Shown piece after piece: positions 44,575 through 56,026 of a stretch of 64,000 nucleotides of DNA (the stretch's first letter is position 1; each line of letters begins with the position of its first letter). The DNA lies in UHGV virus genome UHGV-0222911; one strand, written 5' to 3'. The position numbers and the translations under genes were made by a program. The notes below the pieces were generated by a model that was given only the letters and a program-made list of their open reading frames with translations, was not told where the DNA came from and ran no database searches. The DNA comes from a virus.

Positions 44575-45456
44575 ATGAAAACATCTATCCGTGTTACAGT
44601 TCATTCACCAACTAAAGGAACTCATGAAGAAGAGTTTAACATCATCCAATTTCCTTCTGGTGAGATTGGTGGACACTTTTCGCCAGAGTTTGTTGATTTT
44701 ACTGCTTATGCAGCATCATCCATCAACAATGTGATTATGATTGTAAAAGGTTATGATAAGGACACATTGTTTGCTGTGGCACTTGCTAAAGAAGCAATTG
44801 ATGATTTAATTCCTCACGATTATGCTTTAAAGACTGTCATCTTTTACTACTTACCAAATGCACGATATGACCGTCACATGTTTAAAGGCGACGCAGCAGC
44901 TTTAAAGGTTTTTGCTAAACAGATTAATGCAATGGGGTTTGGCGCAGTCTGTGCAGTTGACCCTCACAGCTATGTACCAGATAACCTGTTTAACTGCTTC
45001 CAGAGTATTCCTCAAAAGGAAATTGCAGTCCACTATGCAAATGACCCACTGATTGATTACTTAGTAGCCCCAGATGCAGGTGCTGCTAAGAAGATTGCAG
45101 AGACTGCTAAAGAGGTGGATAAACCATACATCACAATGTCTAAAGTGCGTAACCTTAAGACTGGTGAAATTACTGGTATGCGAATCCTTGATGATGTTGA
45201 TTTGACAGATAAAACCGTTATGATTCTGGATGATATCTGTGATGGTGGTCGAACCTTCATAGAAGCAGCGAAACATCTTCGTGAAGCAGGTGCAAAACGT
45301 GTGGAACTTTATGTAACACATGGTATCTTCTCTAAAGATGTTGAAAACCTTCTTGACAATGGTATCGACCATATTTACACTACAAACTCTTTAGGCGAAG
45401 CTAAAGACCGTGGCTTAACACATTACAGTCAAGTTACTGTAGCAAACCTTGATTGA
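44575..45456 (+). CDS. ribose-phosphate pyrophosphokinase-like enzyme (Prs family; possibly ADP-ribose pyrophosphokinase of an NAD+ reconstitution pathway)
   Basis: 293 aa; PRPP-synthetase-type motif VMILDDICDGGRTF; directly upstream of NAMPT-like gene. Confidence 0.7.
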   Translation: MKTSIRVTVHSPTKGTHEEEFNIIQFPSGEIGGHFSPEFVDFTAYAASSINNVIMIVKGYDKDTLFAVALAKEAIDDLIPHDYALKTVIFYYLPNARYDRHMFKGDAAALKVFAKQINAMGFGAVCAVDPHSYVPDNLFNCFQSIPQKEIAVHYANDPLIDYLVAPDAGAAKKIAETAKEVDKPYITMSKVRNLKTGEITGMRILDDVDLTDKTVMILDDICDGGRTFIEAAKHLREAGAKRVELYVTHGIFSKDVENLLDNGIDHIYTTNSLGEAKDRGLTHYSQVTVANLD

Positions 45457-45501
45457 AAGTTTATAGGGGCTTAAAAGCCCCATTTTGAGAGAGATTAAAA
45501 G

Positions 45502-47283
45502 ATGACTAAATCACTTTATGCAGTACCAGCAGGTTTAAATGCAGATGCTTACAAATCTGGTCATGTTTACCAGTATCCTAGCGCAACAGAGTACTTGATG
45601 TTCAATCTGACACCACGTAGCGACAAATGGTTTAACAGCCCTTTAGCAATTGACGGTGTAGTGGCTTTTGGTATTCAACGTTTTGTTAAAGATTACTTGA
45701 TAGACCACTGGAATGCCACTTTCTTTGAACGTGATAAAAAAGAAGCCATTGATGAAATCTTAGAAGTCATGAATGGTGTTCTGGGTAAAGATGCTATCGG
45801 TCGAGAGCATTGGGAAGCACTTCACGACTTAGGTTATCTACCAGTTGAAGTATACGCTGTAGAAGAAGGCACAGTTGTTCCAATGCGTGTCCCGATGATT
45901 GTCTTTCATAACACTGTTTCAGGTTTTCATTGGGTAGCAGGTTATCTGGAAGATGCTTTCTCTGCTGAAATTTGGAAGGCTTGCACCATTGCAACTATTG
46001 CATTGCATTACAAACGCATCTGTAAGAAGTGGGCTGACCTTACTTGTGACAATGACTTACATTTACCTTATCAGTGCCATGATTTTGCTATGCGTGGTAT
46101 GTCCGGCTTTACTGATGACGCATTTAACGCTGTAGGTCACTTAACCAGCTTTAAAGGGACTGATAGCTTCCCTGCTGTATACACGGCTAAACGAATCTAT
46201 GGACAGTCCTACCCAATCTCTGATATTGGTAGCTCTGTACCAGCCACTGAGCACTCTGTAATGTGTGCAAACATTGCTTGGGAAGGTGGTAACGAGTTAA
46301 TTGAAGAAGAAAGACGCTTTAAAGGTGAGTTACAAACCTTCCGTCGTTTCTTAACAGAAACTTACCCAACTGGTATTGCAAGTGTTGTTTCAGATACTTA
46401 TAACTTCTGGAGAACTGTATCAGTCATATTACCAGAACTCCGTAAAGAGATTATGGAACGTAATGGCAAACTGGTAATTCGTCCTGATTCTGGAGACCCT
46501 GTACATATTGTCACAGGATACAAAGCAATCCATTTAGAGTGTGCTAAAAAGGCTTATTATGAACACTTAAGCAAGCTGGAAGCCAGTGACACAATGTTGA
46601 ATGCTGTTCTGAACATGAAGCTTGAAAACATCAATTATGGTATTGCTGGATGGCTACTGTCAGAAGGCTACGAAATGGTTGTTGACAGAGAAGACTTTGA
46701 AGTTGCTGATACAGTGCTGTTGAAAAACGCTTATATGGTTGGTTCTGCAAACGTTGTAACACGTCCTGTAGCGGAGATTGATGGAGCTATCAAGACACTG
46801 TATAACATCTTTGGAGGAACTATCAACTCTAAAGGTTTTAAAGTACTGGATGAGCATATCGGGCTTATTTATGGCGACTCTATCACGTTGGAACGTGCAA
46901 ACGAAATACTGAAGCGTTTGTATGAAATGGGTTTTGCAAGCTCTAACGTAGTGTTTGGTGTAGGTTCTTACACTTACCAGTACATGACTCGTGACACCTT
47001 TGCATTTGCTGTCAAAGCAACTCTTGGAAGCATTGGTGGTAAAGAGATTATGCTTGCAAAAGACCCTAAAACAGATAGTGGTGTTAAGAAGTCTGCTTTT
47101 GGTGGTGTAGCACCTATGTGGGATGGTGAAAATCTGAAAGCTGTAGATGGCTATGGGTTCCAGAGCTTTGCAGATGCACTTGAACACCCAGCTTGTGCTT
47201 TACGTCTAGTCTTTAGCGACTCTGAGCAGTTCGGCTACACGACTCTTGGTGATATTCGAAATAATATTGACAAGCAGCTTTAA
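45502..47283 (+). CDS. nicotinamide phosphoribosyltransferase-like enzyme (NadV/NAMPT family)
   Basis: 593 aa; N-terminal NADAYKSGHVYQYP matches NAMPT signature (DSYKVTHYKQYP). Confidence 0.8.
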   Translation: MTKSLYAVPAGLNADAYKSGHVYQYPSATEYLMFNLTPRSDKWFNSPLAIDGVVAFGIQRFVKDYLIDHWNATFFERDKKEAIDEILEVMNGVLGKDAIGREHWEALHDLGYLPVEVYAVEEGTVVPMRVPMIVFHNTVSGFHWVAGYLEDAFSAEIWKACTIATIALHYKRICKKWADLTCDNDLHLPYQCHDFAMRGMSGFTDDAFNAVGHLTSFKGTDSFPAVYTAKRIYGQSYPISDIGSSVPATEHSVMCANIAWEGGNELIEEERRFKGELQTFRRFLTETYPTGIASVVSDTYNFWRTVSVILPELRKEIMERNGKLVIRPDSGDPVHIVTGYKAIHLECAKKAYYEHLSKLEASDTMLNAVLNMKLENINYGIAGWLLSEGYEMVVDREDFEVADTVLLKNAYMVGSANVVTRPVAEIDGAIKTLYNIFGGTINSKGFKVLDEHIGLIYGDSITLERANEILKRLYEMGFASSNVVFGVGSYTYQYMTRDTFAFAVKATLGSIGGKEIMLAKDPKTDSGVKKSAFGGVAPMWDGENLKAVDGYGFQSFADALEHPACALRLVFSDSEQFGYTTLGDIRNNIDKQL

Positions 47284-50304: not shown

Positions 50305-51413
50305 ATGACTACTAAAACTAAAGCACAGATTGACGCAGAAATTTACGAACTGGTTAAAGAAGGTAAGCTGACTAAAACAGCTATTGCACAGAAGTTCAAT
50401 ACTTCAACCCGTTCAGTTGGTCGTGCTGTAGAGCGTCATGAAGCAACCTTAAAAGGTAAGAAGAAGGCGACTTCTACACCAGCTAAGAAGACCCTAAAAC
50501 AAGTTGCTAAGTCAGTTAAAAAGAAAGCTGACAAACCAGTTGAAAAGGCCGTTAAAGACGCTGTACAGAAAGCTCCAGTAAATAAACTGCATGAAGCTAT
50601 GCAGAAAGATGACAAGATTGAGTACATGATTACTGGTGACTCTGTAATTATGACTTACGGTTCAGAATCTGAAATTGTTGAGTCTACTCATCCGAACTAT
50701 CAAGAGATTGTAGTTCATGTTGTGAAAGGTGAGTTCAAGAAAGCATTTGAACTGATGAACATTCGTAAGTCTATCGAAAACTTCACTCAGGGTGCTATCA
50801 CAATCAAAGGTGACAAGCTCTTCTACGGTGCTGTTGAGATGCGTTCTACTCTGGTTGACCGTATTCTTCACATGATGAAAACTGGTGATAAAGGTTTTGA
50901 ACGACTTGTAATGTTCTTCGAAAAACTGATGGAAAACCCATCTAAAGATTCTGTAGAACAACTTTGGGGATTTGTATCTCACCTTGATGTTGAAATTGAT
51001 GAAGAAGGTTACATCATTGGTTGGAAGAAAGTCTCTACTCGTGAAGGCAAGCTGGTTGACTCTCACACCTACAAAGTGCCTAATGATTTGGGTAACATTG
51101 TAGAGATGCCACGTTGGATGGTTGATAACAACCGTAACGTAACTTGCTCTCAAGGTCTTCATGTTGGCGCTTGGATTATGTTCGTTGCTTCTCAGGTGAT
51201 ACCATCCTGAAGGTTCGTGTCCATCCACGAGATGTTGTATCCGTACCAACTGATTACAACGATATGAAGATGCGTTCCTCTCGTTATGAAGTTGCAGCAA
51301 TCGTTGATAATCAACGTAAAGTGCTGAAAGCATGGGATGGTAAGACTGAAGCTTTGCATGTCATCGTTGGCACTGCTGGTGAACTTATCTCTCAACGTAA
51401 ACGTGAAATCTAA
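50305..51413 (+). CDS. rIIB-like protein candidate, split by an apparent -1 frameshift near 51180-51210
   Basis: ORFs 50305..51210 and 51144..51413 overlap by 67 nt in different frames and read as one protein; Lys-rich segment near N-terminus; rIIB identity only from position after rIIA-like gene. Confidence 0.3.
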
Positions 51414-54582: not shown

Positions 54583-54783
54583 ATGGCTGACTTCTGCAAA
54601 GACTGTTCTATAGAAATGTTTGGACGTGATACAGGTGACTTAAAAGGTCTTATCACTGAAGATGACTTTAAAGCTGGCTATGCAATGCCAGTAATCTGTG
54701 AAGGTTGTGGATGTATCTGGGTAGACCACGAAGGACAACGTGTAAAACCTTCAGAAGATAAAGAATCTTGGGAGAGATGTTAA
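54583..54783 (+). CDS. small Cys-containing protein
   Basis: 66 aa; CKDC...CEGCGC. Confidence 0.35.
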   Translation: MADFCKDCSIEMFGRDTGDLKGLITEDDFKAGYAMPVICEGCGCIWVDHEGQRVKPSEDKESWERC

Positions 54784-55569
54784 ATGGGTATTGTAAAAAT
54801 CATCAATGGCGATATCTTTGCCGCATTTGATAAAGGTAAGTTTGACATCATTGGTCACGGTTGCAACTGTATGAATTTAATGGGCGCAGGTATCGCTGAC
54901 AAGATTTCTAAACTTTACCCAAAAGCATATGAGACCGATACAGAGGTTTATCTATATGCAGGTGGCATAGGTCACAAACCTTGTGAAAATTTACTGGGTA
55001 ATTTCTCTGTAGCACGTTTAAAACAAGGTCGTATAGCTAACCTTTACACTCAGCTTAAGACTGGTAAAGATGCCCGATACAGTGCTTTAGAATCATCTTT
55101 GAAACAGCTTAACAGATACTGTGAAGTTAATCAGTTGAGGAAAGTTGGTTTACCTATGATTGGTGCAGGTATCGGTGGGTTGGACCCTCAAGCCGTCACA
55201 GTTATCATCAATCAGGTGATGAAGAGTGTAGATGTTTATCTATATGTCTATGAAGGAGAGATGTACCACAAGTTACGCTCAGGTTGGAAGAACTACTGTG
55301 AACCAGAATACTTTGCAGGTGTAGTTGTGTTCACGGATAATGCAGTTACCCTCTTCAGACGAAGAAAAGGTAAGATACATCAAAGTAACCCTCCGGTTGA
55401 GAAGATGTCTCTAAGTAACGCTCTAGTTACCCACCTGTCGAAGAGCAATCACAGGATAGCCGTAACATTTGGCAGTGATGCAGATACATATATTTATGCA
55501 AGAACTGATGAGGATATCGAGACGGTCTTCTCTTCACCGGAAGTTACCTTCTTAGACGCAAAGAACTAA
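54784..55569 (+). CDS. macro-domain (ADP-ribose binding/processing) protein candidate
   Basis: 261 aa; N-terminal IINGDIFAAF...DIIGHGCNCMNLMGAGIADKI resembles macro-domain core. Confidence 0.5.
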   Translation: MGIVKIINGDIFAAFDKGKFDIIGHGCNCMNLMGAGIADKISKLYPKAYETDTEVYLYAGGIGHKPCENLLGNFSVARLKQGRIANLYTQLKTGKDARYSALESSLKQLNRYCEVNQLRKVGLPMIGAGIGGLDPQAVTVIINQVMKSVDVYLYVYEGEMYHKLRSGWKNYCEPEYFAGVVVFTDNAVTLFRRRKGKIHQSNPPVEKMSLSNALVTHLSKSNHRIAVTFGSDADTYIYARTDEDIETVFSSPEVTFLDAKN

Positions 55570-55639
55570 GAAACTCTGTATAATATTCACAATAGACTAA
55601 GCCTTTCTTATCTGGTAAATTTTTCAGGTAAGGAGGGCT

Positions 55640-55823
55640 TTTTCATTTCAAGATTGTGCAGGTAGAGTTCTGTAGAGAAATCTGTAGAGAGAATTTTGAA
55701 CTCCAAAGAGAAAATTCATTTTCAAACTGTGCAGGTAATCTCCAAAGAGTTTTTTCATTTTCAAAACGTGCAGACCCCGCTCAGGTCGGGCAAGAAAAAT
55801 CATTTTAGAATTGTGCAGGTAGG
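55640..55823. repeat. four direct repeats of ~CATTTTCAAAnTGTGCAGGTA in ORF-free region
   Basis: Copies near 55640, 55714, 55752, 55798; followed by C-rich tract CCCCTCTCCCCCTCTTACTCCCCCTCTCCCC at ~55826-55876. Confidence 0.6.
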
Positions 55824-55997
55824 TTTTTATAGACAGCCAGCCCAGCCCCTCTCCCCCTCTTACTCCCCCTCTCCCCAAAAGTCAAGAGAAAAATTTGTAG
55901 CGGATTGAAAAATAATTCTTGATTGTAGTTCTGTTTTGTGGTAGTCGCGTGCGCCCGTTTCATTACAGTTTTTTCAAAAATATTTTTAAAATTTTTC

Positions 55998-56026
55998 TTG
56001 ACTCTTTGGATATGGTTATCTAATAT
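55998..56026 (+). promoter_or_regulatory. sigma70-like early promoter (module A1)
   Basis: TTGACT - 17 nt - TAATAT, then hairpin GGGGAGGGAATGACCTTCCCC at 56037-56057 and conserved leader to ATG 56093. Confidence 0.6.

What the first reader, a model, noticed from the sequence alone, without database searches (positions are those of the whole stretch)
54784..55569. Macro-domain protein encoded downstream of the NAD+-related genes
The N-terminal motifs (GDIFAAF...DIIGHGCNCMNLMGAGIADKI) resemble the ADP-ribose-binding macro fold. A phage macro domain could reverse host ADP-ribosylation of DNA or proteins or hydrolyse ADP-ribose-derived signals, and would fit with the ADP-ribose/NAD+ metabolism genes 8 kb upstream. 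The C-terminal ~100 aa have no recognisable motif.
Basis: partly seen in the sequence, partly recalled or inferred. Interest (0 to 1): 0.5.

Follow-up and report, generated by a model that had tools for sequence, protein, structure and literature searches.

The report
Phage macrodomain enzyme with orphan tail domain
This gene of a Felix O1-like phage encodes a genuine ADP-ribose-handling macrodomain enzyme, related to phage proteins recently shown to defeat bacterial ADP-ribose/NAD+-based immunity, fused to a faster-evolving 100-residue domain with no known relatives; the gene is already annotated in GenBank, but its target has not been tested.

Summary
The ORF is real and lies exactly at 54784-55569 (+), 261 aa. 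The window is a Felixounavirus, about 96% nt identical to phage wV8, where the gene is gp012 "phosphatase". Residues 1-157 are a bona fide macrodomain: Pfam PF01661 scores above its cut-off, and an AF2 model (pLDDT 86) superposes on TARG1 and DarG (TM 0.82-0.85). It belongs to the phage "Poa1p-like" family PHROG 335. Two members of that family have reported functions. T4 Tk.4/AdfM (35% identical) counters DarTG2. Adpp (27-34% identical) is an ADPR-1''-phosphate phosphatase that lets the NARP1 pathway beat aRES. The "NAD+ genes" upstream are NARP1 itself (Adps/Namat), which was discovered in the Felixounavirus Bas63. The Ounavirinae proteins form their own clade, and phylogeny does not resolve which relative is closer. 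All these clades carry an invariant Gln (Q90) where TARG1 and DarG have the catalytic Lys. Residues 158-261 form a beta-rich domain with no match in sequence or fold. It is confined to this clade and evolves faster (dN/dS 0.25 against 0.03). I rank DarT2-type DNA de-ADP-ribosylation first and NARP1-feeding phosphatase second. Verdict: a new architectural variant of a known kind, of moderate interest.

The parts
54784..55569 (+). Complete CDS (261 aa plus TAA) of the macrodomain protein. It is the orthologue of wV8 gp012 'phosphatase' and of the 'macro domain protein' of the O157 typing phages.
   Evidence: tblastn gives 99.2% aa identity to phage heid 'putative phosphatase'
54784..55254 (+). 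Macrodomain (residues 1-157). Its ADP-ribose-binding signature is H25-G-C-N28-C-x-N-L-M-G34-A-G36-I-A38, N86-L-Y-T89-Q90 and P124-x-I-G127-A-G129-I-G-G132-L-D134.
   Evidence: Pfam PF01661. AF2 pLDDT 86.3 and pTM 0.86. Foldseek: TARG1 TMt 0.83-0.85, DarG TMt 0.82. The signature residues are invariant in alignment A1. dN/dS is about 0.03.
55051..55053 (+). Codon of Gln90. It occupies the position of the catalytic Lys of TARG1 (K84) and DarG (K80).
   Evidence: HMMER alignments to TARG1 and the MAFFT alignment. The 'TK' motif is listed in review PMC8120803. The Gln is invariant in T4 Tk.4, Adpp and the Ounavirinae clades.
55255..55566 (+). C-terminal orphan domain (residues 158-261). It is beta-rich (6 strands plus 1 helix) and has a basic R194-R-R-K-G-K199 stretch. 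P174, G179 and Y236 are conserved across the clade.
54770..54775 (+). Shine-Dalgarno-like GGGAGA, 8 nt upstream of the ATG. The upstream ORF's stop codon (54781-54783) abuts the start codon, so translational coupling is possible.
   Evidence: read directly from the sequence
55599..55649 (+). Intrinsic-terminator-like hairpin plus T-run that closes the transcription unit.
   Evidence: a terminator is annotated at the same place in wV8
44575..47283 (+). Context, not the same operon: the NARP1 NAD+ reconstitution pathway. Adps (Prs-like) is at 44575-45456 and Namat (NAMPT-like) at 45502-47283. It is a possible functional partner under the Adpp hypothesis.
   Evidence: Pfam. 38% and 40% identity to the Adps and Namat of the Vibrio phage Brizo NARP1-AP operon. 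NARP1 was defined on the Felixounavirus Bas63 genes 79-80.

Best explanation
The gene encodes a phage 'orphan' ADP-ribose-processing macrodomain enzyme used for counter-defence. It belongs to the Gln-type, Poa1p-like phage macro family (PHROG 335), which contains T4 Tk.4/AdfM and Adpp. The most likely job is that of T4 AdfM: it binds the ADP-ribose that DarT2-type toxins attach to thymidines of single-stranded phage DNA and hydrolyses it off, so that replication can continue. Shown here: the ORF, the macro fold, an intact ADP-ribose-binding pocket under strong purifying selection, homology to Tk.4, and the two-domain architecture. Inferred: the substrate, the catalysis (which must work without the DarG/TARG1 lysine) and the biological target. 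The lineage-specific, faster-evolving C-terminal beta-domain is inferred to be an accessory module that recruits substrate or binds a partner, not a catalytic one.
For: Fold and sequence: the macro fold and pocket are confirmed. The best defence-library hit is DarG, with PADLOC 4.4e-13 and NCBIfam DarG 1.4e-12 over the macro part. By fold, DarG (TMt 0.82) and TARG1 (0.83-0.85) are closer than Poa1p (0.75).

Characterised relative: the closest one is T4-type Tk.4, at 35% identity and tblastn E about 1e-16. A clean tk.4 knockout sensitises T4 to DarTG2, and the gene was named adfM. Chimallivirus macro AdfM removes DarT2 ADP-ribose from DNA in vitro. The window protein shares the HGCNC and NLYTQ signatures with Tk.4. 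It scores slightly better on a Tk.4 HMM than on an Adpp HMM, 85.2 against 77.3 bits, and 5 of 6 Ounavirinae members do the same.

Distribution: about 2,800 phage records hold a homologue. Those checked in T4-like phages, Phapecoctavirus and Privateervirus are not next to NARP1 genes. The family's usual role is therefore NARP1-independent.

This gene: it is not in the NARP1 operon.
Against: The catalytic Lys essential in DarG (K80) and TARG1 (K84) is replaced by an invariant Gln. The T4 AdfM evidence is genetic only and comes from a preprint. The only biochemically proven activity within the Gln-type clades is ADPR-1''-P phosphatase, in Adpp. Phylogeny does not place the Ounavirinae clade with Tk.4; the deep nodes have under 50% bootstrap support. 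A NARP1-associated macro from Acinetobacter phage phiAbaA1 also has the HGCNC/YTQ signatures, so they do not discriminate. No data on DarTG2 sensitivity of any Felixounavirus were found.
Confidence: 0.4

Rival explanations
1. The protein is an Adpp-like ADPR-1''-phosphate phosphatase acting in trans with the phage's own NARP1 pathway. RES-domain defence (aRES) cleaves NAD+ to nicotinamide plus ADPR-1''-P, which Adps cannot use. The macro enzyme would remove the 1''-phosphate, and Adps and Namat (44575-47283) would then rebuild NAD+.
For: The phage carries NARP1. Adpp of Vibrio phage Gary is a Poa1p-like macro with demonstrated ADPR-1P to ADPR activity and is required to overcome aRES. The window macro is homologous to NARP1-embedded macros: Brizo and JSF10 27-28%, Pakpunavirus 33-34%, phiAbaA1 32%. 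It shares their invariant Gln. Poa1p is hit in the PDB, with profile E 6.3e-5 and Foldseek TMt 0.75. NARP1 and the macro gene co-occur at conserved positions across Ounavirinae. aRES occurs in E. coli, Klebsiella and Enterobacter, which overlaps this phage group's E. coli/Salmonella hosts.
Against: The gene is 7.5 kb and 12 ORFs downstream of Namat, behind rIIA/rIIB and at least two terminators. Characterised Adpp genes sit inside or within two genes of the operon. Felixounaviruses are absent from the authors' list of NARP1-associated macros. Co-occurrence within one subfamily reflects vertical descent and is not independent evidence. A small-molecule phosphatase gives no obvious reason for an extra fast-evolving domain.
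Confidence: 0.3
2. The protein handles an ADP-ribose derivative other than these two, or only binds one. Candidates are reversal of protein or RNA ADP-ribosylation by host defence ARTs, O-acetyl-ADP-ribose deacetylation, or sequestration or cleavage of ADPR-based immune signals such as His-ADPR or cADPR isomers. The C-terminal domain might directly bind a host defence protein.
For: Macrodomains are generic ADP-ribose binders and hydrolases. Loss of the TARG1/DarG Lys-Asp dyad leaves both mechanism and substrate open. Some GenBank records call the protein an O-acetyl-ADP-ribose deacetylase. Family members carry other C-terminal fusions, for example P0026 with a cREC_REC domain. That suggests varied nucleotide-signal contexts.
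Against: No homologue of this family has been shown to do any of these things. The pocket residues are conserved with two members that have assigned substrates. T4 carries Tk.4 yet belongs to the T-even group against which the mRNA ADP-ribosylating CmdTAC system gives robust defence (abstract of PMC11618068). Whether Tk.4 acts on that modification has not been tested.
Confidence: 0.2
3. The protein does housekeeping RNA-repair chemistry. Like yeast Poa1p, it would clear ADP-ribose-1''-phosphate generated by RNA repair or splicing linked to the phage polynucleotide kinase encoded 2.5 kb upstream.
For: It is annotated 'phosphatase' by analogy to Poa1p. A PNKP-like gene lies nearby in wV8 (gp004) and in the metagenomic relative.
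Against: ADPR-1''-P in tRNA splicing requires a Tpt1-type 2'-phosphotransferase (established knowledge). None was seen among the neighbouring genes examined. I did not scan the whole window for one. Both experimentally supported roles in this family are counter-defence.
Confidence: 0.05

Closest known systems
T4 Tk.4 = AdfM (anti-DarT factor Macrodomain; HIDEN-SEQ preprint 10.1101/2025.11.20.689424)
   Same: It is a phage-encoded orphan macrodomain in the same PHROG 335 family. It is 35% identical over residues 3-157. It shares the HGCNC, GxG[IV]A, NLYTQ and IGAG motifs, including Gln in place of the DarG lysine.
   Different: Tk.4 is a single domain of 155 aa. The window protein adds a 104-residue C-terminal domain. 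The two fall in separate, well-supported clades. The anti-DarTG2 role has not been tested for any Felixounavirus.
Adpp, ADPR-1''-P phosphatase of the NARP1-AP operon (Vibrio phage Gary; bioRxiv 10.64898/2026.01.28.702374)
   Same: It is a Poa1p-like phage macro with the same invariant Gln. Its phage also encodes Adps and Namat. It is 27-34% identical to NARP1-embedded macros.
   Different: Adpp genes lie inside or within two genes of the NARP1 operon and encode about 157 aa. Here the gene is 7.5 kb away in another transcription unit and has an extra domain. Most Adpp carry HQxNC/YGQ rather than HGCNC/YTQ, although phiAbaA1 is an exception.
DarG antitoxin of DarTG2 (PDB 5M31/5M3E, 5M3I) and chimallivirus AdfM (PhiKZ gp104; PMC13309987)
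   Same: The macro fold is shared (TMt 0.79-0.82). The DarG HMMs are the best hits in the PADLOC and NCBIfam libraries. Both are two-domain proteins with an N-terminal macro domain and a C-terminal accessory domain.
   Different: The window protein lacks the catalytic Lys (K80; K78 in PhiKZ AdfM). It scores 47.6 bits against the 250-bit DarG equivalog cut-off. Its C-terminal domain matches neither the DarG HMM's C-terminal half nor any PDB fold. No darT gene is adjacent.
Human TARG1/OARD1 (PDB 4J5R/4J5S)
   Same: It is the best PDB match by sequence (profile E 3.7e-11) and by fold (TMt up to 0.85).
   Different: Neither residue of the catalytic dyad is conserved: K84 aligns with Q90 and D125 aligns with G131.
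Yeast Poa1p (PDB 6LFQ), ADP-ribose-1''-phosphate phosphatase
   Same: It shares the N-terminal H-x-C-N-C...G-x-G-I-A motif and the fold, with TMt 0.75. It is the source of the 'phosphatase' annotation.
   Different: Only the N-terminal ~60 residues align by sequence (E 0.012 for the single sequence, 6.3e-5 for the profile). Poa1p is a eukaryotic tRNA-splicing housekeeping enzyme.

Membership tests
Macro domain superfamily (Pfam PF01661) | Profile HMM score above the curated gathering threshold | tested here: met
   31.7 bits against a gathering score of 22, E 1.7e-7, residues 25-141 covering profile positions 2-117 of 118
Macro domain superfamily (Pfam PF01661) | Three-layer alpha/beta/alpha macro fold | tested here: met
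   AF2 pLDDT 86.3. Foldseek probability 1.0 and TMt 0.79-0.85 to the TARG1 and DarG macrodomain structures, and about 0.70-0.76 to viral macrodomains and Poa1p.
Macro domain superfamily (Pfam PF01661) | Conserved ADP-ribose-binding loops (Asn of loop 1, GxG[IV]A, second Gly-rich loop) | tested here: met
   N28, G34-A-G36-I-A38 and G127-A-G129-I-G-G132 are invariant in 19 family members
T4 Tk.4 / AdfM-type phage macro (PHROG 335) | Significant full-domain sequence homology to Tk.4 | tested here: met
   tblastn E 1e-15 to 1e-16 and 34-35% identity over residues 3-160. The hit gene is tk.4. PHROG 335 gives E 2.5e-113.
T4 Tk.4 / AdfM-type phage macro (PHROG 335) | Single-domain architecture of about 155 aa | tested here: not met
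   The protein is 261 aa, with an added domain at residues 158-261
T4 Tk.4 / AdfM-type phage macro (PHROG 335) | Required for phage growth on DarTG2-expressing hosts | not testable with these tools
   This needs a phage knockout and plaque assays. No literature on Felixounavirus and DarTG was found.
Adpp of NARP1-AP | Macro gene located within two genes of adjacent Adps and Namat genes (the authors' operational definition) | tested here: not met
   Namat ends at 47283 and the macro gene starts at 54784. Twelve ORFs including rIIA/rIIB and several terminators lie between them. The phage is absent from Table S1.
Adpp of NARP1-AP | The same genome encodes NARP1 (Adps plus Namat) | tested here: met
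   Bas63 precedent
Adpp of NARP1-AP | ADPR-1''-P to ADPR phosphatase activity | not testable with these tools
   This requires an LC-MS enzyme assay
DarG (type II antitoxin, NCBIfam NF048014) | Equivalog HMM score at or above the cut-off | tested here: not met
   47.6 bits against a cut-off of 250. Only profile positions 4-153 of 338 are matched.
DarG (type II antitoxin, NCBIfam NF048014) | Catalytic lysine in the T-K motif (K80) | tested here: not met
   The motif is T89-Q90, invariant in the clade. The motif definition comes from PMC8120803. The equivalence runs through the TARG1 alignment; DarG itself was not aligned residue by residue.
DarG (type II antitoxin, NCBIfam NF048014) | C-terminal DarT-binding domain and an adjacent darT gene | tested here: not met
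TARG1-like hydrolases | Catalytic dyad Lys84/Asp125 | tested here: not met
   K84 aligns with Q90 and D125 aligns with G131

The most novel reading that the evidence does not exclude
The Ounavirinae protein would be a bipartite counter-defence factor analogous to DarG but built independently. A Gln-type macro enzyme would erase the ADP-ribose product, either ADPr-DNA or ADPR-1''-P. The fast-evolving, fold-orphan C-terminal domain would directly bind and inhibit, or be recruited to, a variable host defence protein such as DarT2 or aRES, or would dock onto the phage's NARP1 enzymes. If one enzyme handled both ADPr-thymidine and ADPR-1''-P, it would link the AdfM and Adpp functions now described separately. 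It would also show that DNA de-ADP-ribosylation can proceed without the DarG lysine.
Probability: 0.15. Interest if true: 0.6.

Novelty: new variant of a known kind. Interest (0 to 1): 0.38.

Why it matters
Felix O1-like phages are widely used typing and therapy phages. Bas63, a member of the genus, is the phage in which NAD+ reconstitution (NARP1) was discovered. This conserved macro gene sits at the junction of two counter-defence functions reported in 2025-2026 for the same protein family: AdfM against DarTG2, and Adpp against aRES. The gene has not been tested in this lineage. Assigning its substrate would show whether NARP1 phages extend the pathway in trans. It would also show whether Gln-type macrodomains can remove ADP-ribose from DNA without the canonical lysine, and what the clade-specific C-terminal domain adds. 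The finding is not a new kind of system, because hundreds of GenBank records already annotate the gene as a macro domain protein or phosphatase.

Tried and rejected
1. C-terminal domain searches, all negative:
- Pfam and NCBIfam gave nothing.
- phmmer against 1.84 billion representatives returned only its own family, plus a weak match (E 8.5e-4) to a 6x repeated 'GAEADTYTFAA' motif in P0033. I regard that match as inflated by the repeats and spurious.
- A profile search with alignment A2 found nothing outside the family.
- BFVD returned only its own family.
- afdb50 was not available.

2. Is the C-terminal extension of Erwinia phage phiEa104 gp016 homologous? hhalign says no (probability 0.1). 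Both extensions map onto overlapping columns of PHROG 335. The answer is inconclusive.

3. Is the abutting 66-aa CxxC ORF a dedicated partner? Rejected. It is PHROG 2210, common in rV5-like and T5-like phages that lack an adjacent macro gene. The distant relative L003 has an unrelated small ORF in that position.

4. Can HG/TQ against HQ/GQ signatures separate AdfM-like from Adpp-like proteins? Rejected. The NARP1-associated phiAbaA1 macro carries HGCNC/YTQ.

5. Can phylogeny or HMM scoring assign the clade? The deep nodes are unresolved and the scores are nearly equal.

6. A direct residue alignment to DarG could not be printed, because TARG1 entries fill the alignment slots. A plasmid tblastn returned no annotated DarG. 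The Lys equivalence therefore rests on the TARG1 alignment plus the literature.

7. The LeRoux 2022 DarTG paper is not held. No paper links Felixounavirus or Bas63 to DarTG or to its macro gene.

Full report
Observation. It runs from ATG at 54784 to TAA at 55567-55569 on the + strand, encodes 261 aa, and contains both quoted peptide motifs. The opposite strand is closed in the corresponding frame. A GGGAGA Shine-Dalgarno sequence lies 8 nt upstream, and the stop codon of a 66-aa upstream ORF abuts the ATG. A strong terminator-like hairpin follows at 55599-55640.

Source of the window. It comes from a Felixounavirus. The 2.2 kb around the gene is 96% identical to Escherichia phage wV8 and the O157 typing phages. 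In those genomes the gene is annotated 'phosphatase' or 'macro domain protein', and in other records 'O-acetyl-ADP-ribose deacetylase'. The protein is 99.2% identical to that of phage heid. The entity is therefore already annotated in public records. Its function has not been tested: literature searches found nothing on it.

The macrodomain. Residues 25-141 match Pfam Macro above the gathering threshold (31.7 against 22 bits). The whole protein matches PHROG 335 at E 2.5e-113. An AlphaFold2 model built from 19 family members is confident, with pLDDT 86.3 and pTM 0.86. Foldseek places residues 1-160 on TARG1 (TMt 0.83-0.85), on Thermus and Mycobacterium DarG (0.79-0.82) and on Poa1p (0.75), all with probability 1.0. 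In defence-oriented libraries the only hit is DarG (PADLOC 4.4e-13; NCBIfam 47.6 bits). That score is far below the 250-bit equivalog cut-off and is confined to the macro half of the model. Pocket residues are invariant across relatives down to 32% identity: H25, G26, N28, C29, G34, G36, A38, N86-L-Y-T-Q90, P124, G127, G129, G132 and D134.

A mechanistic peculiarity. In HMMER and MAFFT alignments, T89-Q90 aligns with T83-K84 of TARG1. K84 and the equivalent DarG K80 (the 'TK' motif) are the catalytic lysines (PMC8120803). TARG1's D125 aligns with G131. The window protein therefore lacks the TARG1 dyad and the DarG lysine. The Gln is not a local oddity. It is invariant in T4 Tk.4, in RB5 Tk.4, in phiEa104 and in all NARP1-associated macros examined, as [YH]-[TGAS]-Q. 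I could not print a direct residue alignment to DarG, so the equivalence runs through TARG1.

What is known about relatives. Two members of this family acquired functions in 2025-2026.
- T4 tk.4 was the single significant hit in a transposon screen on DarTG2. A clean knockout sensitises T4 to that system, and the gene was named adfM; enzymatic removal of ADP-ribose from DNA was inferred, not shown. I confirmed that the T4-like hits of the window protein are tk.4, at 35% identity. A different, Lys-containing macro from chimalliviruses, also called AdfM, does remove DarT2 modifications from DNA in vitro.
[quoted passage not shown] That molecule is the product of the RES-domain defence aRES. Dephosphorylation lets Adps and Namat rebuild NAD+. 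Vibrio phages Brizo and JSF10 and the Pakpunaviruses show this arrangement. Their macros are 27-34% identical to the window protein.

The upstream 'NAD+ genes'. They are a Prs-like gene (44575-45456) and a NAMPT-like gene (45502-47283). They are 38% and 40% identical to Brizo Adps and Namat. NARP1 was in fact discovered in genes 79-80 of Bas63, a Felixounavirus. This part of the window is a known system.

Which function applies here? Neighbour-joining trees place the Ounavirinae proteins in their own clade with 92-94% bootstrap support. The clade includes Felixounavirus, the Mooglevirus phage Michonne, SUSP-like phages, Kolesnikvirus and metagenomic relatives. It is distinct from the Tk.4 clade (100%) and from several NARP1-associated clades, and the deep nodes are unresolved. 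Clade HMMs score the window protein 85.2 bits (Tk.4) against 77.3 bits (Adpp). A tempting signature, HGCNC/YTQ against HQxNC/YGQ, fails as a discriminator because NARP1-associated phiAbaA1 has the former.

Context argues mildly against Adpp. The gene is 7.5 kb and 12 ORFs from Namat, beyond rIIA/rIIB and terminators, whereas characterised Adpp genes are in the operon. NARP1 and the macro gene keep the same relative positions in phiEa104 and in a 33%-identical metagenomic relative, but that is vertical inheritance and not independent evidence. About 2,800 phage records carry a homologue. The T4-like, Phapecoctavirus and Privateervirus loci I examined have no NARP1 genes beside it. The family's default role is therefore NARP1-independent. 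I rank DarT2-type DNA de-ADP-ribosylation first (0.40) and trans-acting Adpp second (0.30). The two are not mutually exclusive. The only in-vitro activity proven for a Gln-type member is the phosphatase.

The C-terminal domain (residues 158-261).
- It is conserved in length and position throughout the clade, and P174, G179 and Y236 are invariant or nearly so.
- Modelled alone it is a beta-rich domain with pLDDT 78.8. The full-length pTM of 0.86 suggests that it packs rigidly on the macro domain.
- It does not resemble DarG's toxin-binding domain.
- It evolves faster than the macro domain. Identity is 45-52% against 76-81% to Michonne-like and SUSP-like proteins, and 13-19% against 40-54% to distant relatives.
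- In nine Felixounavirus alleles, dN/dS is about 0.25 against about 0.03, with 21 of 104 against 7 of 157 variable residues and no indels. The domain is therefore coding and constrained, but markedly more plastic than the macro domain.
- phiEa104 carries an extension of the same length with no detectable similarity by hhalign. Another family member is fused to a cREC_REC domain. The C-terminus of this family appears to be a swappable accessory position. That is compatible with a partner-binding or targeting role, but this is inference only.

Verdict. The protein is an uncharacterised, architecturally variant subfamily of a known kind of phage counter-defence enzyme. Interest is moderate. The open points are the substrate (AdfM-like, Adpp-like or both), how catalysis works without the canonical lysine, and the role of the orphan domain. 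All three can be tested directly in Bas63.

Noticed in passing
window 44575-47283 (+): The adjacent Prs-like (293 aa) and NAMPT-like (593 aa) genes are the NARP1 NAD+ reconstitution pathway (Adps/Namat). It was first described in the Felixounavirus Bas63. GenBank records still annotate the genes as ribose-phosphate pyrophosphokinase and nicotinamide phosphoribosyltransferase.
   Followed up: yes
window ~51172 (rIIB, 50305-51413): The rIIB reading frame is split into 301 aa plus an 89-aa ORF in another frame. The cause is a 1-nt deletion in a GGG run relative to wV8 (GCTT-GGATTA against GCTTGGGATTA). It is either a genuine rIIB frameshift mutant or a homopolymer sequencing error.
   Followed up: partly
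window 54583-54783 (+): A 66-aa ORF with CxxC...CxxC motifs (zinc-ribbon-like) belongs to PHROG 2210, of unknown function. Its stop codon abuts the macro start codon. Homologues of 55-77% identity occur in rV5-like, T5-like and some Pseudomonas phages that have no macro gene annotated at the match, so it is probably not a dedicated partner.
   Followed up: partly
window 55643-55833 and 55838-55870: The intergenic region downstream of the terminator holds 3-4 copies of a ~34-nt direct repeat (…TCATTTTCAAAnTGTGCAG…) spaced 39-45 nt apart. A C-rich tract follows (CCCCTCTCCCCCTCTTACTCCCCCTCTCCCC), then AT-rich palindromes and a TTGACT-17-TAATAT promoter-like site at 55998-56026. wV8 annotates a 54-aa ORF and 'DR' repeats in the corresponding region. 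Their function is unknown.
   Followed up: partly
L004 2498-3280 (Erwinia phage phiEa104 gp016): The Kolesnikvirus orthologue has the same length (260 aa) and a macro domain 45% identical to the window's. Its C-terminal 103 residues show no detectable similarity to the Felixounavirus C-terminal domain by hhalign. The cause may be domain replacement or extreme divergence.
   Followed up: partly
protein P0026 (metagenomic, 339 aa): A family member with the same NLYTQ macro domain is fused C-terminally to a cREC_REC (PF20274) domain. This is another accessory fusion in the family.
   Followed up: no
T4 Tk.4 (L005 3923-4390, minus strand) and Adpp sequences (Table S1 of 10.64898/2026.01.28.702374): T4 AdfM is reported to counter DarTG2 and is presumed to act like DarG. 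Yet it carries Gln at the position of DarG's essential catalytic Lys, as do the biochemically proven ADPR-1''-P phosphatases. The two published functions therefore sit in one Gln-type family whose DNA-deribosylating chemistry has not been demonstrated.
   Followed up: partly
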